In this document: positions 13,147 through 34,099 of the stretch, one piece after another
Layout of the letters: every line of letters starts with the position of its first letter
Position numbering within the stretch: the stretch's first letter is position 1
Origin: an uncultured Lachnospiraceae bacterium
GTDB lineage: Bacteria; Bacillota; Clostridia; Lachnospirales; Lachnospiraceae
Assembly: GCA_946628415.1 (NCBI GenBank)
Contig: CAMOWK010000011.1
Location: 9,927-73,926, forward strand
DNA length: 64,000 bases
Direction: 5' to 3'
Position numbers and translations under genes: made by a program
The notes under the pieces: generated by a model
What the model was told of the DNA's origin: nothing
The model's database searches: none
What the model saw: only the letters and a program-made list of their open reading frames with translations

Positions 13147-13227
13147 TTTCCTTTAATCTCCTTATAATCATTCGCAGTAATAGTAAGCTATATACCGGTT
13201 TCTACATTTATTCCCCGGCATATAAAT

Positions 13228-13312: not shown

Positions 13313-13318
13313 ATATTA

Positions 13319-13595: not shown

Positions 13596-13606
13596 CACTG
13601 TGCCAT

Positions 13607-13635
13607 AGTATAGTTCATCAAAAAGATTTTGTAAA
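13607..13635 (-). promoter_or_regulatory. Sigma-A-type promoter for the T-box leader
   Basis: TTTACA (13635-13630), 17 bp, TATACT (13612-13607), 11 nt before Stem I. Confidence 0.7.
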
Positions 13636-13689
13636 GCGCTTATTCGGCAATTTTCACATTTCCCAGTTCACGCTTAAAGATTTTTAAAA

Positions 13690-14589
13690 CTACAATCTGT
13701 TTAACAAAAACAAAATCCTTAATGAGATTTCATCAGTAACATTTCTCCTAAGCCTTCGTGGGAAAAAAAGTTTTGGTATAATCGACTTAAAATAGCTGTC
13801 ACATGTAAAAAGATCAACCAGACTTTTATCATAATCCGACAATTCGTTATAAAAAACGGACTTAATTTCCTTTAAAATCATTTTATAACTCTTAAGGCTG
13901 TTTCCAAGAATAAACTGCTTAAATCGCCAAATGAACATACCGCAAAATGACATATTGCTGCTTGTAACAGTCGATTCATGCCGTCTATAAAGAGCAAGCG
14001 GCTCACTATCTGTTACTATCCTTCCACATCCGGCAAAATACATAGCCATCCATGTTCCACGGCCTCCACACTTAATCGGAAGATTGCTCAGCAGGTTTTC
14101 TCTTGCTTTTTTGGTAAGCGCCATTGTAAACTCAAGCCCCGGAACTTCAAAAAGTACATTTACAAGTCTTTGTCTGTTCCTAATATCAGGGGATATAGAC
14201 ACTTTATTAAGACCACTGTCACAAATTACATATCGGCTGTAGTAACATACATTCTTATTCTTAAATTTTCTGAGTTTTTCTACCGCCTTCTCCACCTTTT
14301 GTGGCAGCCAATAGTCATCCTGATCAGCAAAGAAATAGTAATCTGCTTCTATATCATCTTTAAAAAGACTCCAGAAACAATCCGGATAACCCAACCTGCT
14401 TCCCTTTATAATATGCACTCTGCTATCATCAGCATATGAATCAAGTATTTTCAATGTACCATCACTTGACCCATCGTCCCTTATATAGAGCTCAAGATTT
14501 TTATATGTTTGATTCAAAATACTGTCTATCTGCTCTCTTACATATTTTTCCCCGTTGTAAGTAGCCATTAGGACAACGGCCTTATCCAT
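13690..14589 (-). CDS. GT2 glycosyltransferase (rhamnosyltransferase-like)
   Basis: VLMATYNGEKY, IRDDGSSDGT, YFFADQDDYW, LALYRRH. Confidence 0.88.
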   Translation of the reverse strand: MDKAVVLMATYNGEKYVREQIDSILNQTYKNLELYIRDDGSSDGTLKILDSYADDSRVHIIKGSRLGYPDCFWSLFKDDIEADYYFFADQDDYWLPQKVEKAVEKLRKFKNKNVCYYSRYVICDSGLNKVSISPDIRNRQRLVNVLFEVPGLEFTMALTKKARENLLSNLPIKCGGRGTWMAMYFAGCGRIVTDSEPLALYRRHESTVTSSNMSFCGMFIWRFKQFILGNSLKSYKMILKEIKSVFYNELSDYDKSLVDLFTCDSYFKSIIPKLFFPRRLRRNVTDEISLRILFLLNRL

Positions 14590-14617
14590 TTTATAAATCC
14601 TCTTAATCTATAGCGTA

Positions 14618-16156
14618 TTATTTTGCAATTCTGCCCTCTTTTTTACCATAATTAATATAATGCAGATAATACTGTTTATTATCAGAGCCAAATGCCCTTC
14701 GAAGGTCAATATATCTTGACCTGTATGCATTTAGATTAAAGTCCGGCTTTGCCTGACGTCCTTCCTTCATTCCATAATTTACGAAATGCTGCAAGGTTGC
14801 TATATCGTCATTCCCGAAAGCCTTTTTTATATCAGGATATCTGCTTGTGTAATAGTAGTAATCATATACGGAGCTGTAATCAACGCCATTCATTTTAGTT
14901 ACGGCATTTTTAACCGATTTGGTTCCCGTTGCCTTTCTTCCTTCATTGTAACCATATCTATTATAATGCTCATAATACTTAGCTAAGTCATTTCCAAAAG
15001 CAAGTCTGAGATCCTGATATGCATACTTATAGGAATATACATCAAATGTATCGCTGGACTTTCTGCCTTCCTTCATGCCGTACTCATTGAAATGCTTAAT
15101 GTACTTCTCATTATCATTACCAAAAGCCTTCACAAGATCAGCATTATTCTTTTTATATGTGCTTATATTAAATACTGCGCTTCCCTGTCTTCCTTCTGAA
15201 AGGCCATAACTCTCGTAATGCTTTGTAAGTTTTTCAGCATTTGAACCGAATGCTCTTCTAAGATCTGTATACTTGGCAGCATAGAAGCTTGTATTAAGTG
15301 TAGGTCCGAATGCCGGAAGTGCTCCAAGTCTTCCTTCCTTTTTACCGTAATTCACAAAGTGTGCCAAATACTTAAAATTATTACTTCCGTAAGCTCTTCT
15401 AAGATCTGCATTGGCTGACTTATAGTAATTAACATTAAAATCAGCTGAAGCCTGACGGCCTTCTTTTATCCCATATGCTATCCAGTGAACCTTAAGGAAT
15501 GTATCATTCATACTCCTGAGATCTGCATATTTGTTTCTGTAGTAAACCGGATCAAAAACCGCTGAGCCGAGATATGTCTTATTTGTAAACCACGGATTAC
15601 CTGCTGACCATCTGTCAGTAGGATCCCAGTCTCTAAACGGTGATGGACATGGACCTATCTTTGGGTTTTTAGGTTTCCCAAGCGGTCCGGTTGAAGAGCT
15701 TGCCATTACCGTCACAGGCGTTCCATCAGGGCAATTATCATATATATACTTTGCCCCTTCAACATTGAGCCTTACACATCCATGTGAAGCATTCTGACCA
15801 AGTATATCGTAATCTGCAGTATAAACAGACCCAGCATCGCCAAACCTTGCACAAGGTACTGAATGAAACAATACTGAGCCAACAATACGGTTTGTATACT
15901 GCCCCGCCGAATTAAGAAGATGTCCCCATCTGGCTCTTCCGGACAGTCTGAATGTTCCATGAGGAGTTGCTGTTTCAGCCCTTCCCGCTGAACAAATGAG
16001 TGACTTAACCGCGGCACCATTCTTGTATATGGTAACAACATTTGACTGTGTGTTAACATATATATGCCAGCCACCGGCTGCTTCAGCTTTTAAATCCGGA
16101 ATAAAGCTTAACAGCATTGCACATACAATTATAAGCGATAATAGTTTTCTTTTCAT
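14618..16156 (-). CDS. Secreted L,D-transpeptidase (YkuD) with seven C-terminal ~40-aa 'Y.DL..AFG...HY..YG.KEGR' repeats
   Basis: Signal peptide MKRKLLSLIIVCAMLLSF..AEA; IYVNTQSNVVTIY, TPHGTF, LFHSVP, SHGCVRL (catalytic H/C). An alternative GTG start lies at 16165. Confidence 0.88.
   Translation of the reverse strand: MKRKLLSLIIVCAMLLSFIPDLKAEAAGGWHIYVNTQSNVVTIYKNGAAVKSLICSAGRAETATPHGTFRLSGRARWGHLLNSAGQYTNRIVGSVLFHSVPCARFGDAGSVYTADYDILGQNASHGCVRLNVEGAKYIYDNCPDGTPVTVMASSSTGPLGKPKNPKIGPCPSPFRDWDPTDRWSAGNPWFTNKTYLGSAVFDPVYYRNKYADLRSMNDTFLKVHWIAYGIKEGRQASADFNVNYYKSANADLRRAYGSNNFKYLAHFVNYGKKEGRLGALPAFGPTLNTSFYAAKYTDLRRAFGSNAEKLTKHYESYGLSEGRQGSAVFNISTYKKNNADLVKAFGNDNEKYIKHFNEYGMKEGRKSSDTFDVYSYKYAYQDLRLAFGNDLAKYYEHYNRYGYNEGRKATGTKSVKNAVTKMNGVDYSSVYDYYYYTSRYPDIKKAFGNDDIATLQHFVNYGMKEGRQAKPDFNLNAYRSRYIDLRRAFGSDNKQYYLHYINYGKKEGRIAK
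14621..15556 (-). repeat. Seven protein-level repeats F(D/N)..YY...Y.DL...(F/Y)G....L..H(F/Y)..YG..EGR
   Basis: Seven EGR-terminated units counted in the translation. Confidence 0.85.
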
Positions 16157-16200
16157 CCGACGCACCCCATTTCTGATATACTGCTACTACTATTTATATC

Positions 16201-16959
16201 TTAATTCAAATAATTTGACAATCTTCTTTTTATATCACTTGAACATATCCTCGGTGTCCTTGATAGCCCTACTACTTCCCTGCCATTTTCATTACACCAT
16301 TTAACAGCCCTCTTAAAGCCATCATGAGTCTGATCTCCACCTATGGCAAAAATATCAAAATCTTCTTTTGGTAAACTGGTATCAACATCCCGGTATACCA
16401 CTACCTCATCAACAACCTTGAATGCAGAGACCATATTGATTCTTTCCTGAGTCGTATAAAAAATATCTGCATTCGGTTTTGTCTTGAGTATAAAGTCACC
16501 ATCCTGCACCGCTACAACCAGATAGTCACCGTACTTCTTTGCATTTTCAAAAAGTATGAGATGCCCATAATGAAAGAAGTCAAAAACGCCAACCGTAATA
16601 ACAGTTTTCTGAGGCCTTGGCTTTGAAGTCATTTTATTACGAAGTAAGGGTTCTGTAGTACCCCCCCTACCCATCAAATCCAGATCAAAATACTTATCAA
16701 TCTCATATCCGACAGGTTCTTCTGTACCTTTTACTAAAAATGCATCATCGACTGCTTCAAGTCCCTTTATCAGTTTTAATCGCATATCCTCCGGATATAT
16801 GATTTCTTCGTCAGAAATAGTTTTAGCATATTCATCATCAAAAACACCAATTATCAGTTTTTCACATGCAGCCTTACATTTTTCAATCAGTTTTAGATTT
16901 CCCAGATGAAATACATCAAACACTCCACTAATATAGCCCGTGTGGTATTGTTTTTCCAT
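16201..16959 (-). CDS. Tandem TagD-like cytidylyltransferase; N-terminal domain degenerate
   Basis: Domain 1 SGVFDVFHLGN (HxGH changed to HxGN). Domain 2 VGVFDFFHYGH intact, C-terminal SRTPRICSSDIK. Confidence 0.85.
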   Translation of the reverse strand: MEKQYHTGYISGVFDVFHLGNLKLIEKCKAACEKLIIGVFDDEYAKTISDEEIIYPEDMRLKLIKGLEAVDDAFLVKGTEEPVGYEIDKYFDLDLMGRGGTTEPLLRNKMTSKPRPQKTVITVGVFDFFHYGHLILFENAKKYGDYLVVAVQDGDFILKTKPNADIFYTTQERINMVSAFKVVDEVVVYRDVDTSLPKEDFDIFAIGGDQTHDGFKRAVKWCNENGREVVGLSRTPRICSSDIKRRLSNYLN

Positions 16960-17003
16960 GTTCTATAACTCCATTAAACACTTAATATCTTATGTATTAC
17001 AAT

Positions 17004-17876
17004 CTAGCAATCCTCATCATCAATAAACTCTGTACCATCAAGATATTTTATATACTTTGCCGCCTGATTCCACCTCTTCGACTCTGGAGGTAGTGTCATA
17101 TAGTCATCTCCGTAAAAATGACTGAGTATTTCTTTGTAGCCTACCGGAATTGGCATGGCAGTATCTTCGAATTCAGAATCTATAAGTTTTGAAAACCATT
17201 TTTTCTTATAGATTTCAAAACTGTCTACACATGTAAGCACATATCCGGTTTCCTTATTCTCATATTTTAACATAGTTTTGTTAAAATAATCAGATAGTTT
17301 TTTGGGAGTAATCCCAAATATTTTACACAAATGCTTTATAAATACCTTTGCCAGATATTTGAACTGTCCGGGTAATCCTTTTTCAAAAACCACTGTCTTT
17401 TCACATGATGTAACCGTATACAAAGCCTTTATGATTTTGATTTTAGTATCAATATTATGAAGTATATTATTATCAGCAGGTATATTGTAATAAGGGAATA
17501 TTTCGACAAATATACCCATATCGTCCATTCCGCTTTCCTTTGCGAGACGCGTTACAAATCTGGAATTCTTATAATAGAATTTCGGAATAATTATATAATA
17601 ACCGCCGGGAGTCACTGAAGGAGCATAAAAGCCGTACTCATCAAATTCCTCCTTCGGTATACTGAGGAATTTTATATAATCACTGTAAAACATTCCTATA
17701 TCCATATCATCGTCCCAGGGTATAAAGCCCTTATGCCTTACCGCCCCCAGCAGCGTTCCTGAAATGGCAAAAAATTTAATATCATACTTTTCACATAGAC
17801 TGCGAAATTTATTATATACAGTTATTATATCTCCATGAAGCTTTTTTAAATCTTCTTCATTATACTTCTTGTACAT
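17004..17876 (-). CDS. LicD-family nucleotidyl/phosphotransferase
   Basis: SGTLLGAVRHKGFIPWDDDMDIG, IFVEIFPY, FEDTAMPIP, YGDDYMTLPP. Confidence 0.92.
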   Translation of the reverse strand: MYKKYNEEDLKKLHGDIITVYNKFRSLCEKYDIKFFAISGTLLGAVRHKGFIPWDDDMDIGMFYSDYIKFLSIPKEEFDEYGFYAPSVTPGGYYIIIPKFYYKNSRFVTRLAKESGMDDMGIFVEIFPYYNIPADNNILHNIDTKIKIIKALYTVTSCEKTVVFEKGLPGQFKYLAKVFIKHLCKIFGITPKKLSDYFNKTMLKYENKETGYVLTCVDSFEIYKKKWFSKLIDSEFEDTAMPIPVGYKEILSHFYGDDYMTLPPESKRWNQAAKYIKYLDGTEFIDDEDC

Positions 17877-19119
17877 TTCTATCCCCTTTTTCTATATTAT
17901 GAACATCAAACAGCAGCATAACTATAAGAATAATCATAAGAAGAACTTCCGCGATAACCTGTGAATAACTGCCGCCATTTGGTCCAAATGCCGATATAAG
18001 CGGTCTGTTTATGACAAAATTCAGTATAAAAGAAATCGTCACTGCGATCAGTAGCTGAACAGACTTTCTTATAGCAATCAGCATCCCTGCAAAAAACCAG
18101 ACTGCAGCAGCGAAAAATGTGCACCATATAAGCGGAATCAGGTATTCATCGTGAGCTGCTATAGATGGATTATATAAAAGCTCAAGTCCCCAGTGTCCAA
18201 GCAGATATCCCCCAATATTCAGCACAACAAATGCTGCAACTATTATGAGTGATATCTTTTTTATATATCCGATAAATTTTTCTTTATTCCCATCAAAAAA
18301 GGTTCTTGCTATTCCCGGTATAAACGGCGAATATATAACACTCGCTGTAAGCTGAATAATGACTGTAGGTGATGCGACAGTTGAATAAATACCCAATTCC
18401 TCAATGCCACACTTTTGTTTTATACTCACCCTCACAACTGTGGCAAAAGAAGAAGCCATGAAGTAATAAACTACAAGACCTGCGCATGATTTAAGAAGCT
18501 TAATTATCCTTGCATCATATTTAACCTTCCCAATTCCTGCTATGTTCCTTGTCTGCTTCTTATCATAAAATTGAAATACAAGCCAGTCACTGAGAGCTAT
18601 AAAAATAAAGGTGATATACATTTCTCTTGTCAGTAAAAAAACAACTACAAATGAGGCAAGCTGCAGCGTTCCTCTCATAATATAAGATTTACCAATTATA
18701 TCAAAACGCCAATTTGTCTGCAGCACTCCCTGATAAACATCTTCAGCTGACTCAACTATTCTCATACACATATATATGAGAATACATATAATCTCCATTG
18801 GAGATGTACATACAATGACAGAATAGACTACACATGCTATATATGCAACTGCGCACGTAATCCGCCTGCTCATTATATAATCTTCGTTAGAATAAACCTT
18901 TGTTATATCGGAAATCTGAAAGCTCCTCATCCCAAAAGAAGCTATACTGGCAAATGAATTGGTTACTGACATTGCAAGTCCGAGCATCCCTACAGGCCAA
19001 TAGTTATCTTTTGACATATATACTATCAAAACTGTCATCAACCATTGACAAAAGGAAAAATATACATTTCCCACCGTATTCCACATAATACTCTTTTTCA
19101 TTAAAGCATTACTTTCCAT
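17860..19119 (-). CDS. Wzx-type polysaccharide flippase
   Basis: About 12 TM helices; N-terminal SIMWNTVGNVY, ELGIYST; located within the polysaccharide locus. Confidence 0.8.
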   Translation of the reverse strand: MESNALMKKSIMWNTVGNVYFSFCQWLMTVLIVYMSKDNYWPVGMLGLAMSVTNSFASIASFGMRSFQISDITKVYSNEDYIMSRRITCAVAYIACVVYSVIVCTSPMEIICILIYMCMRIVESAEDVYQGVLQTNWRFDIIGKSYIMRGTLQLASFVVVFLLTREMYITFIFIALSDWLVFQFYDKKQTRNIAGIGKVKYDARIIKLLKSCAGLVVYYFMASSFATVVRVSIKQKCGIEELGIYSTVASPTVIIQLTASVIYSPFIPGIARTFFDGNKEKFIGYIKKISLIIVAAFVVLNIGGYLLGHWGLELLYNPSIAAHDEYLIPLIWCTFFAAAVWFFAGMLIAIRKSVQLLIAVTISFILNFVINRPLISAFGPNGGSYSQVIAEVLLMIILIVMLLFDVHNIEKGDRNVQEV

Positions 19120-19127
19120 ATGTATTC

Positions 19128-19982
19128 CTATTCATCCTTAAATTTAAGTTTATATGGGTAATGATTTTTTCTTTTATCTTCAGGTGGAAGTTGCATAAAA
19201 TCACCGAACATTTTATTCAGGTTATCTTCTATCCTGTTGGGGAACTTAAGATCAAGTCCCTCAAACTTAATGGTTTTCAGCGGATAAATATCATCATAAT
19301 CATAAATATTAAGATAAGCTGTTGTATCACAGAGAAAGTCAAACCTCTTTGCCCCGGCTTTCCCATTATACTGAACACTTACTCTGTGGCACATCTGATA
19401 AAGCCACTTTGAAGAGACATTTAATGTCTTAAGGAACCAGTGAATCATCCCACATACAGGCTGAACTATCTTTGCCTTTATTCCGCTAAACGGAAGGACA
19501 GGATGAGGAATGCTTCTTAGAATAAGGAGCTTGCTCCAGAAGAAAGCCTGAACTGCCTGCCTCCTGAACTTCTTTTCATCATCCGGAATCTGATCAAAAG
19601 GGTATAAATCAAGGAAGATTCCAAAAGGAAGATCAATATCCTTAAGCGGCCACTCGACAAACTCAGTCCCTTTCATCGTCCATCTTGTAGTCAGCAGTGG
19701 ATAATTCGGATAATTTTTCCCGTTCATAAGAAAATACTTGTCACCGTAATACTTATCCGCAAGCCGAAGGAATCTTTCATAATCCTTACGCGGCATAGCT
19801 ATATCAATATCATCATCCCACGGTATAAAACCACCGTGTCTTATAGCCCCGATTGCCGTTCCTCCAACGCCGAAATAAGTAATATTATTTTTTTCACAAA
19901 GATCGAGGAAATCTCTGAGTATTTCTAATTCTGCCTCATGTATTTTCCTGAGCGTTTCCTCATCATAACTTCTATCTGTCAT
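19128..19982 (-). CDS. LicD-family nucleotidyl/phosphotransferase
   Basis: GGTAIGAIRHGGFIPWDDDIDIAMPRKDYERF, IFLDLYPFD, FGDFMQLPPE. Confidence 0.93.
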   Translation of the reverse strand: MTDRSYDEETLRKIHEAELEILRDFLDLCEKNNITYFGVGGTAIGAIRHGGFIPWDDDIDIAMPRKDYERFLRLADKYYGDKYFLMNGKNYPNYPLLTTRWTMKGTEFVEWPLKDIDLPFGIFLDLYPFDQIPDDEKKFRRQAVQAFFWSKLLILRSIPHPVLPFSGIKAKIVQPVCGMIHWFLKTLNVSSKWLYQMCHRVSVQYNGKAGAKRFDFLCDTTAYLNIYDYDDIYPLKTIKFEGLDLKFPNRIEDNLNKMFGDFMQLPPEDKRKNHYPYKLKFKDE

Positions 19983-20010
19983 TTATACATCCTCACAAAT
20001 TGCTGTTAAG

Positions 20011-20796
20011 TCATAGTTTATTTGATTTTTCCGAATTACTATACAGATTGCAAAGCATCTTTGCAACAGCTTTAGGCCAGAATTTACTGTACATTTCAAA
20101 ATCCTCCTGCCACCTGCTGGTACTTTCAATTATTTCCGTAGTAGTCGATTCCTCATGTATTCTGTGCCCCATTAAAAGCATGTGCACATAGCAGAAACTG
20201 CCATCCTCTTTTGAGAGTTTTTCCCATGTTTTCCAGTCAAGATTACTGAGAAGCCCCTCATCAAAAAGCGGTTCGGTAATTCTATCCTTAACGTATGTAA
20301 CAGACGGACAGCATATTCCGTTTCCAAACATAATTGGAAACCGCTTACCAAATCCGGTTCCTCTTAGTCTTCTGTTACACATCGGAACAGATAGAAGCCT
20401 TTTTATGATTAAGTTAGTATTCACCCTGACTCTTTTATCATTTCTTATCTCATAATAATCGGTACAGCACATGATTGCATTTTTAACAGAATTAAGTTCT
20501 TTTATCACTGCTGCCGTATAGTATTTTTCGTATATATCATCCTGATGCGCTATAGTGACATATTTCGTATCAGCTCTGCCGAGTGCACTGTTCCAGTCTT
20601 TTGCTATATCCGGCTCGTGATCCGTCAAATAAACAGGAATTTCATACTTTTTTGCCAGATTTCTTATATACTCATTATCTGTCGAGGTAGATATATAAAC
20701 CTTGCTCTCTACACTCTGGTTCAAAACTGACTTTATACACTCTTCAAGATATGGACTCTCTTTATATGCACAAATTGCAAATGTATGGTCTGCCAT
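20011..20796 (-). CDS. GT2 glycosyltransferase
   Basis: FAICAYKESPYLEECIKS, IAHQDDIY, ICCPSVTY, HRIHEESTT. Confidence 0.85.
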   Translation of the reverse strand: MADHTFAICAYKESPYLEECIKSVLNQSVESKVYISTSTDNEYIRNLAKKYEIPVYLTDHEPDIAKDWNSALGRADTKYVTIAHQDDIYEKYYTAAVIKELNSVKNAIMCCTDYYEIRNDKRVRVNTNLIIKRLLSVPMCNRRLRGTGFGKRFPIMFGNGICCPSVTYVKDRITEPLFDEGLLSNLDWKTWEKLSKEDGSFCYVHMLLMGHRIHEESTTTEIIESTSRWQEDFEMYSKFWPKAVAKMLCNLYSNSEKSNKL

Positions 20797-20811
20797 AATA
20801 ACTCCATCCCA

Positions 20812-22026
20812 CTAATCCAGTTCCTTTTTAGCTGTATCCAGTGCAACTTCTATAACCTTATCCATGTCATAGTACTTGTACTCGCCGAGTCTGCCTCCGA
20901 ATATTACATTTTCCTCTGCATCGGCAAGCTTTTTATATTCAATATATAATCCCGAATTTTTTTCATCATTAACCGGATAATATGGTTCATCTCCCGGCTT
21001 CCACTCAGAACTGTACTCACGGCTTATAACAGTCTTTGGAAGTTCGTTTCCATCCTTATCCTTACCAAACTCAAACCATTTATGCTCTATTATCCTTGTA
21101 TACGGTGTTTCTGAATCTGTGTAATTAATAACAGCATTACCCTGATAATTAGGCATATCAAGAGTTTCAGTTTCAAATCTCACCGAGCGGTACTCGAGTG
21201 TGCCAAGTTTATAATCAAAATATGCATCGATAGGTCCCGTATACAGAACCTTATCGGCAAGTTCGGCGTAAGGCACGGTGGCACCGTCACTATTAATGCC
21301 ATTCTTCCTTACATCAAAGAAATCCGTACCAGTCACCACTTTAATATTCTCATGTGAGAACATATTCTCTATCAGTTTTGTATAACCCCCTACCGGTATA
21401 CCCTGGAAGAGAGCATTAAAGTAATTATTATCAAATGTAAGTCTTACAGGAAGTCTTTTAATGATAAAGCTTGGAAGTTCGGTACATTTGCGTCCCCACT
21501 GTTTTTCAGTATATCCCTTTACAAGCTTTTCATATATATTTTTGCCAACAAGAGTTATAGCCTGTTCTTCAAGATTCTCCGGCTCGTACTCTTCCGGTTT
21601 TATATCCCTTCCGGTCTTTTCTTTATATGCTTTTACAAAGCCAAGGATAGCTTCCTTCTTTTCCTCTTCTATCTTTTCTTTTGCCGCGTCAGGAGTTACG
21701 ACTCCCCACATTTTATTAAAGGTATACATATTGAAAGGAAGCGAATAAAGCTCACCCTTATAATTTGCAACAGGAGAATTTGTATATCTGTTAAAGTCAG
21801 CATACTTCTGCACAAATTCCCATACCTCTTTATTATTGGTATGGAAAATGTGGGCGCCGTACTTATGAACCTCTATGCCTTCAACATTTTCCGTATAGAT
21901 ATTTCCTGCTATATGATCTCTTTTTTCAATGACAAGACACTTAAGCCCTTTTTCAGCCGCTTTTCTGGCAAAAACTGCGCCGTAAAGCCCGGCACCTACT
22001 ATAAGATAATCGTACTTTTTTGACAT
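20812..22026 (-). CDS. glf: UDP-galactopyranose mutase
   Basis: YDYLIVGAGLYG, HKYGAHIFHT, GYTEKQWG, TRIIEHKWF, EPYYPVN, GRLGEYKYYDMD. Confidence 0.96.
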   Translation of the reverse strand: MSKKYDYLIVGAGLYGAVFARKAAEKGLKCLVIEKRDHIAGNIYTENVEGIEVHKYGAHIFHTNNKEVWEFVQKYADFNRYTNSPVANYKGELYSLPFNMYTFNKMWGVVTPDAAKEKIEEEKKEAILGFVKAYKEKTGRDIKPEEYEPENLEEQAITLVGKNIYEKLVKGYTEKQWGRKCTELPSFIIKRLPVRLTFDNNYFNALFQGIPVGGYTKLIENMFSHENIKVVTGTDFFDVRKNGINSDGATVPYAELADKVLYTGPIDAYFDYKLGTLEYRSVRFETETLDMPNYQGNAVINYTDSETPYTRIIEHKWFEFGKDKDGNELPKTVISREYSSEWKPGDEPYYPVNDEKNSGLYIEYKKLADAEENVIFGGRLGEYKYYDMDKVIEVALDTAKKELD

Positions 22027-22110
22027 ACTAATTCCCCTGTTTAATATTTTTCAATTACTCTTTAGTCTATATCATATTTTTTAACAACTATTTAAACCGT
22101 AAAAATCATT

Positions 22111-24156
22111 TTACGGGAATGGACGTGTTGCTCCATAAATATATGGATGCGGTCCACCTGCTACACTGTATTTGTCAGTTACCCTTGGTGGCCATGACTC
22201 TATAACTCTTCCGTTTCCAAGGTAGATTGCAACATGAATGATAATGTTACCTCTTGCACTTCTGTAATATATAAGATCTCCTCTTCTGCGATTGTTATAG
22301 CTGACATGCTGCATAGGAGTCTGATTGAAAAGTGTACGTGAATCATACTCATTCTGCGGAAGCGCATGATGTGCCGGAGTAGCAGGATATGGATTGAAGC
22401 CACCCGCATACAGGCACTGCATTACGAGGCCGCTGCAGTCAGCCGCGCCACCGGGCTGAGTAGATTTACATATTCTGTACTGTGTCCCCATGTAATCATA
22501 TGCACGGGATATCATAGCTTCAATGCGTTCCTCTCTCGAATTGAGATTACCTGTCTTCATAGGGCTTACATAGTATCCCGGAATTGAAACAAGTGTCGGT
22601 GCATTTGTCTGAACCGTATAGATATTCCCCTTACCGTCGTATCTGTACCATGTACCCTTATACTTTAACCATCCATTCTTGTAATTCGGCTTATATAAGT
22701 CATTTGAAAGAGCCTTCTTTTCGTTATAAAGATTATTATCGTAAGAAGCCTTTCCCATTCTTCCTTCTTTAAGACCATACTTTACAAAGTGATTAAGAAC
22801 TGCATCTTCATCTGTTCCAAAAGCATTCTTTATATCACCATATTTTGTAACGTAGAAGTTGTAATCAAAGAGTGCTGCATAATCACCAAGTATATGCTTT
22901 GTCTCATAACCCCTCATTGAAGTTACGCCGCTTGTGACTCTGCCTTCACGGGCACCATACTGGATGTAATGCATATAGTATTTAGGATAATCAGTCTTAA
23001 ATGCATTTCTAAGATCTTTATATGCATAGATGTATGATACAACATCAAACTTTGCATTACCCTTTCTCTGCTGCTTCATACCCTGATTTATAAAATGATC
23101 GAGAGCACTTATATCATTGCATGCATACTGATTGGCAATATCTTTATTATTTGCTATGTAATAATTAAAATCATAAACCTTACTGTAATCAACTCCATCT
23201 TTAGAAGTTACAGGATCTTTTATTGATTTACAGCCACTGGTTCTGCGTCCCTCTTTCTTGCCGTATTTAATATAATGCTCATAATACTTTTTATACTCAG
23301 TACCAAATGCCTTGCGGAGATCCTTATACTCCATAGCATACGAACTCACATCAAAAGTTGAGTTTCCTCTTCTTCTCTCATTCATTCCATACTTTACGAA
23401 ATGTTCAATAAGTCCGTAATCGTTATAAGTTCCGATAACCTTGCGAAGATCAGCATAATGACTTACATAATATTCGTAATCATAAACATCTTTATAATTA
23501 AGACCATTGTATGAAGTAGTAGGACGGATCAGATTTGCTTCTCCAACTGTCTTTCTGCCTTCCTTTTTTCCGTATTTAAGATAATGCTCATAGTACTTTT
23601 CATTATTATTTCTAAATGCATTTCTTAGGTCGGGATATGACTTCATATAAGAATAAACATTGAAGTTTTCACTTGCAATTCTGCCTTCTTTCATTCCGTA
23701 TGTAATAAAATGGCGAAGAGTTTTTTCCTGATCATCTCCAAATGCTTTTTTCAGATCTGCATACTTATTTATGTAGTAGTAATAATCATAAACATCACTG
23801 TAATCTACACCATTATAAACACTTAGTCCCGGTGCAGGTTTTGCAGCAGTTTCATCCTTTAAAACAGGTTCCTGAACAGGCTCAGATATTGAAATAGTCT
23901 TTGTATTTTTTTCATAAACTATTCCCTCTCCAATTGCTTTAGCCTTTTCTTCCGGCTTTACCTCTTTACTCGCGGTTTCATCAGAAGCCGCTGCATCTTC
24001 CGCCTTGGCATCTGTAGACGATGCTTCATCCAGAAGAACAGTTTCTTCAGTAATATCAGTATTCTCTGCAGCATAAGCCGGACTGCCACATAAAAGAGCC
24101 ACTGAAAAAACTGCGCCAAAACATGACATAACAAGTTTCTTACTAAGATTTTTCAT
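22111..24156 (-). CDS. Secreted NlpC/P60 peptidoglycan endopeptidase with seven 'HY..YG.KEGR' repeats
   Basis: RBS AAGGAGG and signal peptide at MKNLSKK (24156). C-terminal YMGTQY..ADCSGLVMQC..GDLIYY..HVAIYLGNGRVIES. One GW..Y.GTWYRYD choline-binding-like unit. Confidence 0.9.
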   Translation of the reverse strand: MKNLSKKLVMSCFGAVFSVALLCGSPAYAAENTDITEETVLLDEASSTDAKAEDAAASDETASKEVKPEEKAKAIGEGIVYEKNTKTISISEPVQEPVLKDETAAKPAPGLSVYNGVDYSDVYDYYYYINKYADLKKAFGDDQEKTLRHFITYGMKEGRIASENFNVYSYMKSYPDLRNAFRNNNEKYYEHYLKYGKKEGRKTVGEANLIRPTTSYNGLNYKDVYDYEYYVSHYADLRKVIGTYNDYGLIEHFVKYGMNERRRGNSTFDVSSYAMEYKDLRKAFGTEYKKYYEHYIKYGKKEGRRTSGCKSIKDPVTSKDGVDYSKVYDFNYYIANNKDIANQYACNDISALDHFINQGMKQQRKGNAKFDVVSYIYAYKDLRNAFKTDYPKYYMHYIQYGAREGRVTSGVTSMRGYETKHILGDYAALFDYNFYVTKYGDIKNAFGTDEDAVLNHFVKYGLKEGRMGKASYDNNLYNEKKALSNDLYKPNYKNGWLKYKGTWYRYDGKGNIYTVQTNAPTLVSIPGYYVSPMKTGNLNSREERIEAMISRAYDYMGTQYRICKSTQPGGAADCSGLVMQCLYAGGFNPYPATPAHHALPQNEYDSRTLFNQTPMQHVSYNNRRRGDLIYYRSARGNIIIHVAIYLGNGRVIESWPPRVTDKYSVAGGPHPYIYGATRPFP
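22759..23790 (-). repeat. Seven protein-level repeats of the same family as in 14618-16156, alternating A/B types
   Basis: Units YDYYYY..Y.DL...HF..YGMKEGR alternate with F(D/N)V.SY..Y.DL...YYEHY..YG.KEGR. Confidence 0.85.
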
Positions 24157-24199
24157 TTTCTCCTCCTTAACTAGTATTTTTCTTAGCTTTATCTTACAA

Positions 24200-24760
24200 T
24201 CAACCTTGCAGGTTGTCGTTATCACTACCGGTATATGCATACCATATATATTTCTGTTTTTCTTTTTCGGAATACTCCACTTTTATATCAAGGTCATTTA
24301 TGGAAGCTCTTTCATATCCATTTTTATCATAGAACCTTATAGCGCGTTCATTATCCGGCTCAACACACCAGTATATAAGCTTGAGTCCCAGATCTCCTGT
24401 TGCAAGCCTCAGCATTTCTTTCATCGCATAGGCTGCGAATCCTTTGCCGATAGCTTCCGATCTGAGCGTTATTCCAAACTCGGCATTGCCAAGATGTCTG
24501 TCAATCTCTTTCAGGCTGACAGTTCCCATATACTTATCACCTTCTCCGGCAATGGCAAGATGAACTGCCCCTCCTATATTAACACCAATATTGCTTTTAA
24601 TCAGCCCCGATGCTATCCGGCTCATTTCAATAAACCTAACACAGTCATCAAGCGTCATTGTCTTAAAATCCTTTTTAAGATTTCCGACAACTGTCTCATC
24701 ATGCATCCATTCAAGCATAAGCGGTGCATCTTCCGTCTTAAGTTCCCTAAGCTTCATCAC
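24200..24760 (-). CDS. GNAT (RimJ/RimL/PseH-like) N-acetyltransferase
   Basis: LRELKTEDAPLMLEWM, AEFGITL..EAIGKGFA, NERAIRFYDKNG. Confidence 0.85.
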   Translation of the reverse strand: MMKLRELKTEDAPLMLEWMHDETVVGNLKKDFKTMTLDDCVRFIEMSRIASGLIKSNIGVNIGGAVHLAIAGEGDKYMGTVSLKEIDRHLGNAEFGITLRSEAIGKGFAAYAMKEMLRLATGDLGLKLIYWCVEPDNERAIRFYDKNGYERASINDLDIKVEYSEKEKQKYIWYAYTGSDNDNLQG

Positions 24761-25190
24761 TTTTCCCCGCTCTTTTTTTAAAAACGAAAATTTTACTTAT
24801 CACATAGTTGCCTACAGTAACAATAACCTGGACAACCAGCTTGGCTATCTTATCATTTACTCCCATAACAGTAACGAGTAAAAACATGGTTCCCATGTCC
24901 ATAAGAAGAGTGCCCACTCTTCCAAGCACAAACTCTATAAATTCCTTCCATCTGTCATTTCTTTCACTTTTAAAAACAAATGACCTGTTAATGAAATACG
25001 CAAACACCACTGCGCCTATCCACGATAAGACATTTGCTGCCTGCAGGAGAAACGGGTTGTCAGGATTTAGAACCGTAAATGTAAGGCCGTAATATATAGC
25101 AAGGGATACAATCGTGGTAAGCACTCCTGCTATGAGATAGTTCACTATCTCCTGATATTTTAAATACATATTCTTAATAGCGGTTACCAT
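24747..25190 (-). CDS. GtrA-family small flippase
   Basis: YLIAGVLTTIVS, ANVLSWI.AVVFAYFINRSFVF, KLVVQVIVTVGNYVISKIFVF; 4 TM. Start trimmed to ATG 25190. Confidence 0.9.
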   Translation of the reverse strand: MVTAIKNMYLKYQEIVNYLIAGVLTTIVSLAIYYGLTFTVLNPDNPFLLQAANVLSWIGAVVFAYFINRSFVFKSERNDRWKEFIEFVLGRVGTLLMDMGTMFLLVTVMGVNDKIAKLVVQVIVTVGNYVISKIFVFKKRAGKSDEA

Positions 25191-26871
25191 AGTATATATC
25201 ACCATCCTGAAGAAGCTTGCCCCATCTGTCACTGAACAGCTTCTTATCAGCCTCCTGAATAGTCTTATAATCATCCGGCGGAGTTAGCCTCCTGCTGTAC
25301 TTACATATCGATCTTCCTGCATATACGGATTTAAGGCCTGCGTCCCTCATCCTTAGGCAAAGATCTTCTATAAGAGTTTCGATAGTCTTATAGCCTTTTC
25401 CAAAACCGCCTGCCGCTTTTAAACTATCCTTTGTAAGCATAACACAGCCTTCCCTGAGTGCCATGTAATCAATGTACTGGTTATATTCCTCATCATAGTC
25501 CTCATGCATAAGGTATTCAGAGCCTAATATCTCATCCTTTCGATAGATGATTCCTGCATGTCTGGTTCTGTACATAGGAAGTGCAAACTGAGTAGCAGTG
25601 ATTCCGACATCCGGTCTTGCATTAAGTATACTCATCATATCACGTAATGCAAATGAACTGTAAATACATACATTGCAGGATACTATAAGTATATATTTGG
25701 TATTTATCCTTGCAATCTGATCGCTCAGTGCTTCTCCGAGTCCGTTTTTACCTCTGCTGAGAGGATTAACCGGAATGAACGATATATCGGACATTCCCTC
25801 CGATTTTTTAATCGACTCAAGGCACTTCTTTAATCCATTTTCAAATCCATCGGTAATCACAAGAACCGTAAGCGCCGCATCCCTGCCGCTTGGCATAGGA
25901 TACTGGGTTATGTAGTGTCCGAAAAGCCTGTCATCCTGACTGACTATAGCTTTAATTCCAAGGCGGTCATAATGCGCCTGAACTGCCTTAACTCCGGCAT
26001 CATATGCGTACATCTTCGCTTCCACATTTCCGGCTGTGGATGTGGCATTTACTCTCCAGCTGTAAAGAATCTTCGGTATATGATGAATCTTAAATGCATT
26101 TTCCGTACATCTGAAAATAAAATCATAATCCTGCGCACCGTTATATTCATCGTTAAAAAGTCCTGCCGTTTCAACAAGTGACTTTTTTACAACAAACATA
26201 TGCGTTATATAGTTACAGCTCTGAAGAAGATCCGGATTAAAATCCGGTTTTATGCTCGGTTCAAAATGCCTCACTCCGCCTTCATCGGTCTTGTCCTCGT
26301 CCGAATAAAGAACATCTATTTCAGGATCTTCATTTATTGCTTTTACACACTCGTAAAATGCATTTGGCATAAAGAGGTCATCATGATCTCCGAGCACTAT
26401 ATAATCACCCGTGGCGAGCGTATATGCCTGATTGGTGTTTGAAGATATCCCGAGTGTCTTATCACCTTCACCAATGTAGAGAATCCTGTCATCATCCTTC
26501 TGATATTCAGCTATGGCGTTTCTGAGTCTTTCTTTATCTTTACTGCCGTCTGAAAAACAAAGCTGCCAGTTACTGTAAGTCTGATCCTTAACCGACTTTA
26601 TCAGTTCATCCAGAAAAGTCAGGTCTGTTTCATAAAGTGGCACCAGAACACTCAGTAAAGGTTTGTAGGAAAAATTCTTATTTCTCTGCCTTTCCAGTTC
26701 ATCCTCTTTGGGTGATACTCTTTCAAAATACTCCTCATAAGCCCGGTCTCTCGGAAGAAGAAAACGCTTGTGAATTGCAAAATATCTGATTGTTGTACTT
26801 ACGGTTTCTTTAAGCCCGTACTGTCTAAAGAAACTCCATACTCTTTTTAACTTGTTAGTTACTTTTGTCAT
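25174..26871 (-). CDS. GT2 glycosyltransferase with a second, degenerate GT2-like domain
   Basis: SVLVPLYET, LGDHDD, YSDEDK, GAQDYDF, HIPKILYSWR; the C-terminal half lacks a clear DxD. Confidence 0.85.
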   Translation of the reverse strand: MTKVTNKLKRVWSFFRQYGLKETVSTTIRYFAIHKRFLLPRDRAYEEYFERVSPKEDELERQRNKNFSYKPLLSVLVPLYETDLTFLDELIKSVKDQTYSNWQLCFSDGSKDKERLRNAIAEYQKDDDRILYIGEGDKTLGISSNTNQAYTLATGDYIVLGDHDDLFMPNAFYECVKAINEDPEIDVLYSDEDKTDEGGVRHFEPSIKPDFNPDLLQSCNYITHMFVVKKSLVETAGLFNDEYNGAQDYDFIFRCTENAFKIHHIPKILYSWRVNATSTAGNVEAKMYAYDAGVKAVQAHYDRLGIKAIVSQDDRLFGHYITQYPMPSGRDAALTVLVITDGFENGLKKCLESIKKSEGMSDISFIPVNPLSRGKNGLGEALSDQIARINTKYILIVSCNVCIYSSFALRDMMSILNARPDVGITATQFALPMYRTRHAGIIYRKDEILGSEYLMHEDYDEEYNQYIDYMALREGCVMLTKDSLKAAGGFGKGYKTIETLIEDLCLRMRDAGLKSVYAGRSICKYSRRLTPPDDYKTIQEADKKLFSDRWGKLLQDGDIYYGNRY

Positions 26872-26963
26872 TATAAGTCCAAATCTTAATTACTATCTAT
26901 AAGCGGTATTAAATGAATACCGGTTATCCTGTCTATAATAATTACAGTTCATACCCGCACTCA

Positions 26964-27833: not shown

Positions 27834-27849
27834 AAATGTGCCCTCCCTT

Positions 27850-28971: not shown

Positions 28972-28989
28972 TAAAAGCTCCTCCGTCCC

Positions 28990-30929: not shown

Positions 30930-30952
30930 ATTGAAATACTCTTTGTAATATT

Positions 30953-31960: not shown

Positions 31961-31972
31961 GTTTTTATCCTC

Positions 31973-32719: not shown

Positions 32720-32755
32720 TTCATATCCTTTCAAAAACACTTTTTCTATCAGTTT

Positions 32756-34054: not shown

Positions 34055-34099
34055 ATCAGTTCCTCTCAAATAGTCTGTTTATAGTTTTATAGTCACTGA

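What the first reader, a model, noticed from the sequence alone, without database searches (positions are those of the whole stretch)
14618..24156. A wall cross-linker and a wall hydrolase inside the polysaccharide locus share the same 7x aromatic 'HY..YG.KEGR' repeat: candidate polysaccharide-anchoring module
Seen: the YkuD L,D-transpeptidase (14618-16156) and the NlpC/P60 endopeptidase (22111-24156) each carry exactly seven ~40-aa Tyr/His-rich repeats. They are C-terminal in one protein and N-terminal in the other. Both genes are embedded among glycosyltransferases. Established: choline-binding, CWB2 and SLH modules anchor wall enzymes by binding secondary wall polymers. Inference: this repeat binds the glycan made by this locus and positions a make/break pair of peptidoglycan enzymes. 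I know the repeat only from uncharacterised proteins.
Basis: partly seen in the sequence, partly recalled or inferred. Interest (0 to 1): 0.68.

Follow-up and report, generated by a model that had tools for sequence, protein, structure and literature searches.

The report
Unannotated wall-targeting repeat of Lachnospiraceae enzymes
Two secreted cell-wall enzymes in this gut or rumen Lachnospiraceae polysaccharide locus carry a large, undescribed helical repeat that many wall enzymes and phage lysins of related bacteria also carry, so it is most likely how these bacteria hold enzymes on their wall, though what it binds is untested.

Summary
The YkuD L,D-transpeptidase (14618-16156) has seven C-terminal 42-aa repeats and the NlpC/P60 peptidase (22111-24156) has seven N-terminal ones. 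A profile built from one protein scores 303 bits on the other; the best of 200 shuffles scores 5.4. Pfam, NCBIfam and the PDB hold no match by sequence, and Foldseek finds no PDB match for the fold. The working unit is an A+B pair of about 95 aa, predicted as a compact six-helix domain (pLDDT 97.7). Six repeats is the usual number, so "seven" is incidental. In relatives the repeat is fused to amidases, glucosaminidases, lysozymes, deacetylases, proteases and cellulases. It lies in tandem gene arrays and ends true phage endolysins, which is the signature of a non-covalent wall-targeting module. Its genes are interleaved with rhamnose and galactofuranose polysaccharide genes in several genera. 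No pepM or ppd homologue lies within 10 kb in 53 genomes. The parallel is C. difficile CWB2 proteins next to the PSII locus. A wall glycopolymer ligand is therefore plausible but unproven; peptidoglycan is the main rival. The repeat belongs to a family of about 18,000 clusters with relatives in Gram-negative bacteria, cyanobacteria and giant-virus glycosyltransferases. The "make/break pair" idea is not supported.

The parts
14618..16156 (-). Secreted L,D-transpeptidase gene: signal peptide, YkuD domain, seven C-terminal repeats
   Evidence: ORF. Pfam YkuD E=1.4e-16. The signal-peptide-like N-terminus MKRKLLSLIIVCAMLLSFIPDLKA and the SHGCVRL motif are read from the sequence. No LPXTG motif or C-terminal membrane anchor. 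RNA-derived contigs identical to parts of the gene occur in a gut metatranscriptome.
15707..16066 (-). YkuD catalytic domain (aa 34-153)
   Evidence: The ortholog in Lachnospiraceae bacterium YSB2008 is 73% identical over this part.
14621..15562 (-). Seven 42-aa repeats of the transpeptidase: R1 15446-15562, R2 15320-15445, R3 15179-15304, R4 15053-15178, R5 14927-15052, R6 14747-14872, R7 14621-14746
   Evidence: hmmsearch envelopes, 55-74 bits each. AF2 model pLDDT 87.6, all-helical. Pairs R1-R2, R4-R5 and R6-R7 are confident; R3 is below pLDDT 50. The R6-R7 unit alone gives pLDDT 97.7 and pTM 0.88.
22111..24156 (-). Secreted NlpC/P60 peptidase gene: signal peptide, acidic linker, seven repeats, catalytic domain
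   Evidence: ORF. Pfam NlpC/P60 E=1.1e-8. Signal peptide MKNLSKKLVMSCFGAVFSVALLCGSPAYA is read from the sequence. Orthologs in YSB2008 and RGIG4867 are 83% and 78% identical in the catalytic part. One RNA-derived contig lies at 23285-23458.
22750..23796 (-). Seven 42-aa repeats of the peptidase: 23671-23796, 23545-23670, 23362-23490, 23236-23361, 23056-23181 (degenerate), 22930-23055, 22750-22875
   Evidence: These form three A+B pairs plus a final unpaired A-type repeat.
22195..22488 (-). NlpC/P60 catalytic domain (aa 585-682)
   Evidence: The DCSG cysteine and the HVAIYLG histidine are read from the sequence.
23821..24072 (-). Acidic linker of the peptidase, poor in aromatic residues (aa 57-140, pI 4.3)
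24200..27833 (-). Conserved neighbour block: GNAT (24200-24760), GtrA (24747-25274), 565-aa GT2 (25174-26871), RmlA (26964-27833)
   Evidence: Pfam. The same order directly precedes repeat-protein genes in YSB2008 (L083) and Eubacterium sp. RGIG4867 (L088).
20812..22026 (-). UDP-galactopyranose mutase (Glf), between the two repeat-protein genes
   Evidence: Pfam GLF E=2.3e-83. Glf is flanked by repeat-protein genes in L083, L088, L115 and L141.
16201..20796 (-). Variable block between Glf and the transpeptidase: GT2, LicD, Wzx-like membrane protein, LicD, tandem cytidylyltransferase
   Evidence: Pfam. The block is absent from the same position in YSB2008, where the transpeptidase ortholog follows Glf directly.
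13690..14589 (-). GT2 glycosyltransferase downstream of the transpeptidase
3777..4979 (-). LytR-CpsA-Psr ligase, the enzyme type that attaches wall glycopolymers to peptidoglycan. It suggests that the locus product is wall-bound.
   Evidence: Pfam LytR_cpsA_psr E=7.9e-36. The role is established knowledge of the family.
27850..34069 (-). Phosphonate sub-locus (phosphonopyruvate-decarboxylase-like TPP enzyme through the PEP mutase-cytidylyltransferase fusion). It lies in the window but is not generally associated with the repeat.
   Evidence: Pfam. In 53 genomes no PepM or Ppd homologue lies within 10 kb of a repeat-protein gene.

Best explanation
The repeat is a previously unannotated, non-covalent cell-wall-targeting module. 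It appears to be the main way a clade of Lachnospiraceae retains secreted enzymes on the wall, and phages of these bacteria use it as the wall-binding end of their endolysins. The working unit is an A+B pair of 42-aa repeats. The A repeat reads NGVDYSxVYDYxYY...HFVxYGMxEGRQA and the B repeat reads FNVxSYxxxYxDLRxAFGxDLxxYYxHYIxYGxxEGRxA. The pair folds into a compact domain of about 95 aa with six helices and a small beta element. Cellular proteins usually carry three such units (some four), which would give multivalent binding to a repeating polymer. Phage lysins carry one or two. In this window the module would hold an L,D-transpeptidase and an NlpC/P60 endopeptidase in the wall. The most likely ligand is a peptidoglycan-linked secondary wall polysaccharide of the rhamnose/galactofuranose type, made by the neighbouring RmlA-GT2-GtrA/Glf genes. 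This would parallel CWB2 proteins and polymer PSII in Clostridioides difficile. Shown here: the repeats, their pair structure, the fusion partners, the endolysin position, the gene arrays and the linkage to polysaccharide genes. Inferred: that the module binds the wall at all (about 0.85), and that the ligand is a wall glycopolymer rather than peptidoglycan (about 0.55-0.6).
For: (1) Both window proteins have signal peptides and no other retention signal. (2) Among 66 non-redundant repeat proteins from GTDB genomes the partners are Amidase_3 (13), glucosaminidase (10), transglutaminase-like (8), polysaccharide deacetylase (7), GH25 (5), NlpC/P60 (4), CAP (3), YkuD (3), papain-like protease (3), GH9 (2), GH5 and M23. 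The repeats sit at the C-terminus in 108 of 167 ORFs, at the N-terminus in 22 and internally in 29. That is module shuffling typical of wall-binding domains. (3) Low-GC viral contigs encode Amidase_2, CHAP, GH25 or glucosaminidase followed by 2 or 4 repeats, and PHROGs calls them endolysins. (4) Several of these lysins also carry LysM or PG_binding_1. This suggests the repeat adds a specificity other than peptidoglycan. (5) Repeat-protein genes form tandem arrays of up to 7 genes in 21 kb; 37 of 68 loci hold two or more. (6) In 33 of 53 genomes a homologue of a window polysaccharide gene lies within 10 kb of a repeat gene: RmlA in 14 and the 565-aa GT2 in 15. Genes interleaved with repeat genes include a DegT aminotransferase, Acyl_transf_3, GT4, a GlfT2-like transferase and DUF2142. 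The gene order differs between genera (L083/L088 versus L115/L141), so the linkage is not only inherited synteny. (7) Precedent: the C. difficile PSII locus lies directly downstream of the CWB2 cwp gene cluster, and the CWB2 family includes glucosaminidases, transpeptidases and proteases (PMC4973711). CWB2 units are about 90 aa and come in threes (PMC5817068). (8) An LCP ligase in the window points to a wall-linked polymer. (9) Remote relatives are fused to glycosyltransferases and a dTDP-sugar reductase in giant viruses and to GT2 in bacteria, which fits a glycan-binding role.
Against: There are no binding data of any kind. Linkage to polysaccharide genes is absent in 20 of 53 genomes, and some repeat genes lie in ordinary contexts (L001). 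Paralogous units within this genome (43-54% identity to the transpeptidase's last unit) are no more alike than units from other genomes (up to 68%), so a strain-specific ligand leaves no visible signature. The repeat regions are basic here (pI 9.0-9.6), but only 59% of homologous repeat regions have pI above 8, so an anionic ligand is not implied. Gram-negative relatives include free-standing repeat proteins with no glycan context. The surface exposure of the conserved aromatics could not be checked. The 68 loci were chosen for similarity to this protein, so they are not an unbiased sample.
Confidence: 0.55

Rival explanations
1. The module is a wall anchor, but its ligand is peptidoglycan itself (glycan strand or stem peptide), as for LysM, SH3b, PG_binding_1 or the Cpl-7 CW_7 repeats. 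On this view the polysaccharide-locus context only reflects a general cell-envelope gene neighbourhood.
For: Most partners act on peptidoglycan. The repeat is well conserved across many genera and in phages, which suits a conserved ligand. Paralogues show no within-genome homogenisation. Twenty of 53 genomes show no polysaccharide neighbour. CW_7 is also a short repeat (the crystallised unit is 48 residues) and binds peptidoglycan (PMC5705596; PMC5817068).
Against: Endolysins combine the repeat with LysM or PG_binding_1, which would be redundant. Cellulases, proteases and CAP proteins also carry it. Remote relatives sit on glycosyltransferases of giant viruses, and peptidoglycan is not known from giant viruses or their eukaryotic hosts (own knowledge). 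RmlA lies within 10 kb in 14 of 53 genomes. For a gene that is usually single-copy in a genome of about 3 Mb (assumed) the expectation is under 1%, an estimate rather than a measured control. There is no Pfam match to any peptidoglycan-binding family, and Foldseek against the PDB returned no significant match at all (best E=2.5).
Confidence: 0.22
2. The repeat recognises a small charged decoration added by the LicD and phosphonate genes of this window (phosphocholine, 2-aminoethylphosphonate or similar) through its aromatic residues, as choline-binding repeats do.
For: The window holds two LicD genes, a tandem cytidylyltransferase, a PEP mutase-cytidylyltransferase fusion and a phosphonopyruvate-decarboxylase-like enzyme. 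The repeat is rich in Tyr, Phe and His. LicD lies next to a repeat gene in L112 and L134.
Against: In 53 genomes no PepM or Ppd homologue lies within 10 kb of a repeat gene, and LicD does in only 2. The LicD block is missing between Glf and the transpeptidase ortholog in the closest relative, which keeps both repeat enzymes. The predicted fold is helical, unlike the beta-hairpin solenoid of choline-binding repeats (own knowledge), and there is no PF01473 match.
Confidence: 0.07
3. The repeat is not a wall anchor. It is a general glycan-binding or scaffolding module: a substrate-binding module for external polysaccharides, an oligomerisation domain, or a rigid spacer that projects catalytic domains.
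For: The superfamily occurs in Gram-negative RTX-type and metalloprotease proteins, in GT2 enzymes and in giant-virus glycosyltransferases, none of which deal with Gram-positive walls. GH9 and GH5 cellulases carry it. Repeat-only proteins exist (8 of 167).
Against: Its position at the wall-binding end of endolysins and its dominance among peptidoglycan hydrolases are hard to explain by binding of dietary glycan. Without another retention signal the secreted enzymes would be lost from the cell. Arrays of many different enzymes sharing one module mirror the known anchor systems CWB2 and SLH.
Confidence: 0.1

Closest known systems
CWB2 (PF04122) cell wall proteins of Clostridioides difficile and their ligand PSII
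   Same: Units of about 90-95 aa usually occur in threes. One module is shared by a large paralogous family of secreted wall enzymes, including glucosaminidases, transpeptidases and proteases. It can sit at either end of the protein. The genes cluster next to the wall-polysaccharide locus (PMC4973711; PMC5817068).
   Different: There is no sequence match to PF04122. The predicted fold is all-helical and each unit is built from two 42-aa repeats. Foldseek against the PDB gave no significant match to any chain (best E=2.5). The ligand is unknown.
SLH domains (PF00395) binding pyruvylated secondary wall polysaccharide
   Same: Three tandem units give non-covalent anchoring of many enzymes to a peptidoglycan-linked polysaccharide, and the anchor genes are linked to polymer-modification genes (background from PMC4973711).
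   Different: There is no PF00395 match. No Pfam match to a pyruvyl transferase was found in the 10 neighbour genes scanned. Unit size and predicted fold differ.
Choline-binding repeats (CW_binding_1, PF01473)
   Same: Aromatic-rich tandem repeats anchor autolysins and phage lysins, and licD genes occur in the same window.
   Different: Those repeats are about 20 aa and form beta-hairpins (own knowledge). Here the repeats are 42-aa helical units. There is no Pfam match and no general linkage to licD.
CW_7 repeats of the Cpl-7 endolysin (PF08230; PDB 4CVD, 5I8L)
   Same: Short tandem repeats of similar length (the crystallised CW_7 unit is 48 residues) at the C-terminus of endolysins and in bacterial wall enzymes, including Lachnospiraceae (PMC5705596). 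CW_7 repeats are helical as far as I recall; this was not checked here.
   Different: There is no PF08230 match, and Foldseek against the PDB returned no significant match (best E=2.5). CW_7 binds a peptidoglycan muropeptide; the ligand here is unknown. Here two unlike repeats form one domain.
Unannotated 'FDxxxYLxxNPDVAAAGxxPLxHYxxxGxxEGRxP' repeat of Proteobacteria and Cyanobacteria, and its giant-virus glycosyltransferase relatives
   Same: This is the same repeat superfamily. The profile built from the window hits all 120 retrieved proteins, with E down to 1e-27. Profile-profile comparison gives probability 97.9% and E=4e-13 over 36 columns. Giant-virus proteins match the model with probability 1.0 and 27-46% identity. 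The shared residues are F-D, Y, D, H-[FY], G and E-G-R.
   Different: Those repeats are about 36 aa and acidic (median pI 5.1). They lack the A/B alternation and the NGVDYS hairpin. They are attached to RTX, metalloprotease M10, Calx-beta and GT2 domains, not to peptidoglycan hydrolases. They too have no Pfam model and, as far as I could find, no described function.

Membership tests
YkuD L,D-transpeptidase (PF03734), for the 14618-16156 protein | Match to the family model above the curated threshold | tested here: met
   61.9 bits against a cut-off of 23.4, E=1.4e-16.
YkuD L,D-transpeptidase (PF03734), for the 14618-16156 protein | Catalytic His and Cys in the HxxxxxxxxxxxxxxxxSHGCxRx motif | tested here: met
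   FHSVP and SHGCVRL are present in the translation. Activity itself was not tested.
NlpC/P60 peptidase (PF00877), for the 22111-24156 protein | Match to the family model above threshold, plus catalytic Cys and His | tested here: met
   35.4 bits against a cut-off of 23, E=1.1e-8. DCSG and HVAIYLG are present.
Choline-binding repeat CW_binding_1 (PF01473) | Sequence match to the ~20-aa repeat model | tested here: not met
   No match at E<=1 in either protein.
Choline-binding repeat CW_binding_1 (PF01473) | Beta-hairpin solenoid fold | tested here: not met
   The AF2 models are helical, with three helices per repeat.
CWB2 (PF04122) | Sequence match to the CWB2 model | tested here: not met
   No match at E<=1.
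CWB2 (PF04122) | Three tandem ~90-aa units shared by a large family of wall proteins clustered beside a wall-polymer locus | tested here: met
   The consensus is three units of about 95 aa. Counts of 6 (75) or 8 (40) repeats cover 115 of 167 ORFs. This is a likeness of organisation only, not membership.
CWB2 (PF04122) | Binding to an anionic wall polysaccharide (PSII) | not testable with these tools
   Needs binding assays.
SLH (PF00395) | Sequence match to the SLH model; dependence on CsaB-type pyruvylation | tested here: not met
   No Pfam match. No Pfam match to a pyruvyl transferase in the 10 neighbour genes scanned.
CW_7 / Cpl-7 repeat (PF08230) | Sequence match to the model, or fold match to 4CVD/5I8L | tested here: not met
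   No Pfam match. Foldseek against the PDB gave no significant match of any kind (best E=6.5 and 2.5).
LysM, SH3b, PG_binding_1 and other Pfam wall-binding domains | Sequence match | tested here: not met
   Only YkuD and NlpC/P60 were found in the two proteins. NCBIfam gave nothing over the repeats beyond chance-level hits (E 0.005-0.12).
The unannotated 'FD..Y...D...H[FY]..G..EGR' repeat superfamily (no database name) | Significant profile match between the window repeats and independent members | tested here: met
   There are 18,056 50%-identity clusters at E<=1e-3 and 2,154 at E<=1e-30. hhalign against a Gram-negative repeat profile gives probability 97.9% and E=4e-13.
Phage endolysin cell-wall-binding domain (functional class) | Location after the catalytic domain in proteins of viral contigs that match endolysin families | tested here: met
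   Amidase_2, CHAP, GH25 or glucosaminidase is followed by 2-4 repeats. PHROGs labels them endolysin.
Phage endolysin cell-wall-binding domain (functional class) | Demonstrated binding to host walls | not testable with these tools
   Needs experiment.

The most novel reading that the evidence does not exclude
The repeat is the Gram-positive branch of a very large, unnamed glycan-binding repeat superfamily whose fold has no solved representative. The same roughly 40-aa three-helix repeat would then have three roles. It would tether dozens of enzyme types and phage lysins to a rhamnose/galactofuranose wall polysaccharide in Lachnospiraceae. It would decorate secreted RTX-type proteins and glycosyltransferases in Proteobacteria and Cyanobacteria. 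It would sit on the glycosyltransferases of giant viruses, which are thought to build the glycans of their virion fibrils. This would be a third tripartite anchor-and-polymer system beside SLH with pyruvylated polysaccharide and CWB2 with PSII, and the first for a major family of human gut and rumen commensals.
Probability: 0.4. Interest if true: 0.78.

Novelty: new variant of a known kind. Interest (0 to 1): 0.62.

Why it matters
Lachnospiraceae such as Roseburia and the rumen Eubacterium and Lachnobacterium groups are central gut commensals, yet how they hold enzymes on their surface is largely undescribed. The known anchors (LysM, SH3b, CWB1, CWB2, SLH, CW_7) do not cover these proteins.

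A named and modelled domain would have several uses:
- It would annotate thousands of "hypothetical" regions; about 18,000 50%-identity clusters match the profile.
- It would give a handle for predicting the hosts of gut phages from their lysins.
- It would supply a binding module for engineered lysins or for surface display in these anaerobes.
- It would point to the wall polysaccharide that organises their cell surface.

The link to glycosyltransferases of Gram-negative bacteria and giant viruses suggests a general glycan-recognition fold that has so far escaped the domain databases.

Tried and rejected
- Sequence searches of the PDB with the repeat profile and with the whole repeat region gave only chance hits (E>=0.26).
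- Foldseek against the PDB gave nothing, for both the 322-aa model and the 98-aa unit (best E=6.5 and 2.5).
- tblastn against GenBank phages found a single unverified faecal contig, whose proteins look bacterial (7 and 10 repeats).
A 9-row alignment worked.
- The window's own genome was not found. The closest is Lachnospiraceae bacterium YSB2008, at 69% in the repeat region. The window protein itself is not on record for a context look-up.
- Look-ups of Gram-negative relatives failed twice. The one that worked showed an uninformative neighbourhood.
- Eight literature searches found no description of the repeat.
- Rejected: "seven" as a meaningful number.
- Rejected: a dedicated transpeptidase/endopeptidase couple.
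- Rejected: a phosphonate or phosphocholine ligand as the general explanation.
- Rejected: net positive charge as evidence for an anionic ligand. Only 59% of homologous repeat regions are basic.
- Rejected: "all viral hits are endolysins". About 57 of the 80 viral loci, those with 49-58% GC, encode a lipoprotein-like protein with one unit and no recognisable catalytic domain.

Full report
**Observation.** The window's minus strand carries a long polysaccharide locus. Two ORFs in it match the finding. The first, 14618-16156, is a secreted YkuD L,D-transpeptidase (Pfam E=1.4e-16). The second, 22111-24156, is a secreted NlpC/P60 peptidase (E=1.1e-8). Both have signal-peptide-like N-termini and intact catalytic motifs, and neither has an LPXTG motif or a membrane anchor. 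Each carries seven 42-aa repeats with the consensus xxFDxxxYxxxYxDLRxAFGxDxxKYxxHFxxYGxKEGRxxx. The repeats are C-terminal in the transpeptidase and N-terminal in the peptidase. A profile made only from the transpeptidase's repeats finds exactly seven domains in the peptidase, at 303 bits; the best of 200 shuffles scores 5.4 bits. No other ORF in the window has the repeat.

**Not a known domain.** Pfam (2025 copy) and NCBIfam (2026) have no model for the repeat. PDB sequence searches give only chance hits. Eight full-text searches found no description of it.

**Anatomy.** An alignment with 115 homologues shows a threefold super-repeat of about 95 aa. Each unit is an A-type repeat, preceded by an NGVDYS hairpin and ending EGRQA, followed by a B-type repeat ending EGRxATG.
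- AlphaFold2 on the transpeptidase's repeat region gives pLDDT 87.6. The region is all-helical, with three helices per repeat. Three pairs are confident and the odd repeat (R3) is below pLDDT 50.
- One A+B unit alone gives pLDDT 97.7 and pTM 0.88.
- Foldseek finds no PDB neighbour for either model (best E=6.5 and 2.5).
- Six repeats is the mode (93 of 120 database homologues; 75 of 167 genome ORFs). Among the genome ORFs eight is next (40) and seven is a minority (23).
- The ortholog of the transpeptidase in the closest genome has nine repeats. "Exactly seven" is therefore three pairs plus one extra, in both proteins by coincidence.

**What the repeat is attached to.** A word-indexed search found more than 1,000 homologues, and the named ones are Lachnospiraceae. 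A profile search of 1.84 billion cluster representatives found 18,056 at E<=1e-3 and 2,154 at E<=1e-30, with up to 19 repeats per protein.
- In 68 loci from 53 GTDB genomes I found 167 repeat ORFs. The genomes include Lachnospiraceae bacterium YSB2008, Roseburia lenta and R. amylophila, Lachnobacterium bovis, rumen Eubacterium MAGs and Sharpea azabuensis.
- In 66 non-redundant ORFs the partners are Amidase_3 (13), glucosaminidase (10), transglutaminase-like (8), polysaccharide deacetylase (7), CHB_HEX_C_1 (6), GH25 (5), NlpC/P60 (4), CAP (3), YkuD (3), papain-like protease (3), lectin-like (3), GH9 (2), GH5 and M23.
- The repeat sits at either end of the protein or inside it.
- The genes form same-strand tandem arrays of up to seven genes in 21 kb.
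- This pattern is the signature of a non-covalent wall-retention module. The window's transpeptidase and peptidase are two ordinary members, not a dedicated pair. Both are kept flanking glf only in YSB2008.

**Phages.** IMG/VR holds at least 92 confirmed matches.
- Low-GC contigs encode classical endolysins. The architectures seen are Amidase_2 with 4 repeats; Amidase_2 or CHAP with 4 repeats and LysM; GH25 or Amidase_2 with 2 repeats; and glucosaminidase plus amidase plus PG_binding_1 with 2 repeats. PHROGs labels them endolysin. So one or two A+B units serve as the wall-binding end of lysins. Their frequent pairing with LysM or PG_binding_1 hints at a ligand other than peptidoglycan.
- A caveat applies. 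About 57 of the 80 viral loci have 49-58% GC. They encode a 323-365-aa protein with a lipoprotein-type signal, one A+B unit and no recognisable catalytic domain. That protein is not a lysin.

**Link to polysaccharide genes.**
- The window order is RmlA, 565-aa GT2, GtrA, GNAT, repeat peptidase, Glf. The same order recurs in YSB2008 and Eubacterium sp. RGIG4867.
- In YSB2008 the repeat transpeptidase follows Glf directly. The window's LicD/Wzx/cytidylyltransferase block (16201-20796) is absent there.
- In Roseburia lenta and a Hadza MAG a different order links the same themes: DUF2142, GlfT2-like transferase, a 1,116-1,140-aa repeat protein, Glf, RmlA, GT2.
- Genes interleaved with repeat genes include a DegT aminotransferase, Acyl_transf_3 and GT4.
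- Per genome, 33 of 53 have a homologue of a window polysaccharide gene within 10 kb of a repeat gene. The counts are RmlA 14, the 565-aa GT2 15, Glf 4, LicD 2, PepM 0 and Ppd 0.
- For a gene that is usually single-copy in a genome of about 3 Mb (assumed), chance would give under 1%. This is an estimate, not a measured control.
- The window also has an LCP ligase and RmlB, which suggests that the polymer is wall-linked.
- This closely parallels C. difficile. There the PSII locus lies directly downstream of the cluster of cwp genes, and three ~90-aa CWB2 units bind PSII (PMC4973711; PMC5817068).

**Wider family.** A consensus recalled from memory for a Gram-negative motif retrieved 1,593 real proteins from Methylobacterium, Azospirillum, Niveispirillum, Halomonas and cyanobacteria. 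The few precomputed co-domains are RTX, peptidase M10, Calx-beta and GT2.
- The window-derived profile hits all 120 listed proteins, down to E=1e-27.
- A profile of 474 of their repeats has the consensus FDxxxYLxxNPDVAAAGxxPLxHYxxxGxxEGRxP. It aligns to the window profile with probability 97.9% and E=4e-13.
- That motif has no Pfam model either.
- Against predicted viral structures, the unit matches giant-virus glycosyltransferases and a dTDP-sugar reductase. The probability is 1.0 for the best of them and identity is 27-46%; single-repeat matches have rmsd 1.4-2.3 Å.
- The repeat is thus one branch of a broad, unnamed superfamily that tends to accompany glycan enzymes.

**Interpretation.** I take the module to be a wall-targeting anchor (about 0.85). 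Its most likely ligand is a rhamnose/galactofuranose-type secondary wall polysaccharide (about 0.55-0.6 given that it is an anchor). Three units would give avidity.
- Peptidoglycan binding is the main rival (0.22).
- A phosphonate or phosphocholine ligand (0.07) is disfavoured by the neighbourhood counts.
- A non-anchor role (0.10) is disfavoured by the endolysin architecture.
- The charge argument fails. Only 59% of homologous repeat regions are basic.
- Weak expression evidence exists. Gut metatranscriptome contigs identical to parts of both genes were found, though DNA carry-over cannot be excluded.

**Verdict.** This is a new family, apparently with a new fold, doing a known kind of job. 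Its ligand is untested and it has an unexpectedly wide set of relatives.

Noticed in passing
L025-L081 (e.g. L037:5248-6258, L029:5248-6258): About 57 viral contigs with 49-58% GC encode a 323-365-aa protein near the contig or prophage end. It has a lipoprotein-type signal (…ILACG…) and a C-terminal A+B repeat unit. Its ~250-aa N-terminal part matches no Pfam or PHROG family. It may be a prophage-borne surface lipoprotein (a lysogenic-conversion or exclusion gene) of a host outside the low-GC Lachnospiraceae.
   Followed up: partly
window 43659-48116 (-): This is a 1,485-aa ORF with about 11 hydrophobic segments in its first 520 residues and no significant Pfam domain (weak DUF7440 and Lnb-TM hits). 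It lies between a priming transferase and the SUF genes. A weak relative sits near a repeat gene and LicD in YSB2008 (L112:18703-19965). It may be a large membrane polymerase or transferase of the locus.
   Followed up: partly
window 27850-34069 (-): A phosphonate sub-locus. It holds a PEP mutase fused to a cytidylyltransferase (32756-34069), a phosphonopyruvate-decarboxylase-like TPP enzyme (27850-28971), DUF6564, a metallophosphoesterase and dehydrogenases, next to a Wzx-type flippase (34100-35704). This suggests a phosphonate-decorated glycan. It shows no general link to the repeat.
   Followed up: partly
window 37654-43580 (-): A second glycopolymer pathway lies in the same window. It has two Bac_transf priming transferases (37654-39084, 42177-43580), an IspD-like cytidylyltransferase (41451-42167), an epimerase/dehydratase, an Acyl_transf_3 and DUF6077. 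'The glycan made by this locus' is therefore ambiguous.
   Followed up: no
window 22618-22680 (peptidase aa 521-541): Between the repeats and the NlpC/P60 domain lies the stretch NGWLKYKGTWYRYDGKGNIYT. By eye it resembles a single choline-binding-type (CW_binding_1) repeat. Pfam did not report it.
   Followed up: no
L083, L098, L108, L109, L136: Tandem same-strand arrays of 6-7 repeat-protein genes lie within 21 kb in YSB2008, RUG222, Lachnobacterium bovis and Lachnospiraceae bacterium C7. In YSB2008 a HipA-like kinase gene sits inside the array (L083:17141-18424).
   Followed up: partly
L093 versus L094; L148: A contig labelled 'Thermoguttaceae bacterium LCP21S3_D1' has the same three repeat-protein genes at almost the same positions as Roseburia amylophila. 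A 470-kb contig labelled 'Candidatus Saccharibacteria SZUA-359' carries a Lachnospiraceae-like repeat gene with RmlA and GT2 neighbours. These are probably mislabelled or contaminated assemblies.
   Followed up: no
L082 (MT836085.1): The only GenBank 'phage' record with the repeat is an unverified 14.4-kb faecal contig. It encodes 1,236-aa and 779-aa proteins with 10 and 7 repeats. This looks like bacterial DNA rather than phage DNA.
   Followed up: no
window 24157-24240 / 24200-24760: The longest ORF of the peptidase (start 24240) overlaps the end of the upstream GNAT gene. The start that yields a signal peptide is 24156. Similarly, the transpeptidase ORF begins with GTG at 16165, but ATG at 16156 gives the signal peptide.
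   Followed up: yes
window 13000-28000: Two gut metatranscriptome runs hold short contigs that are at least 99% identical to parts of the transpeptidase (14508-14699, 15323-15792, 15924-16159), the peptidase (23285-23458), the cytidylyltransferase, Glf and the 565-aa GT2. The strain therefore occurs, and is probably transcribed, in a sampled gut community.
   Followed up: partly
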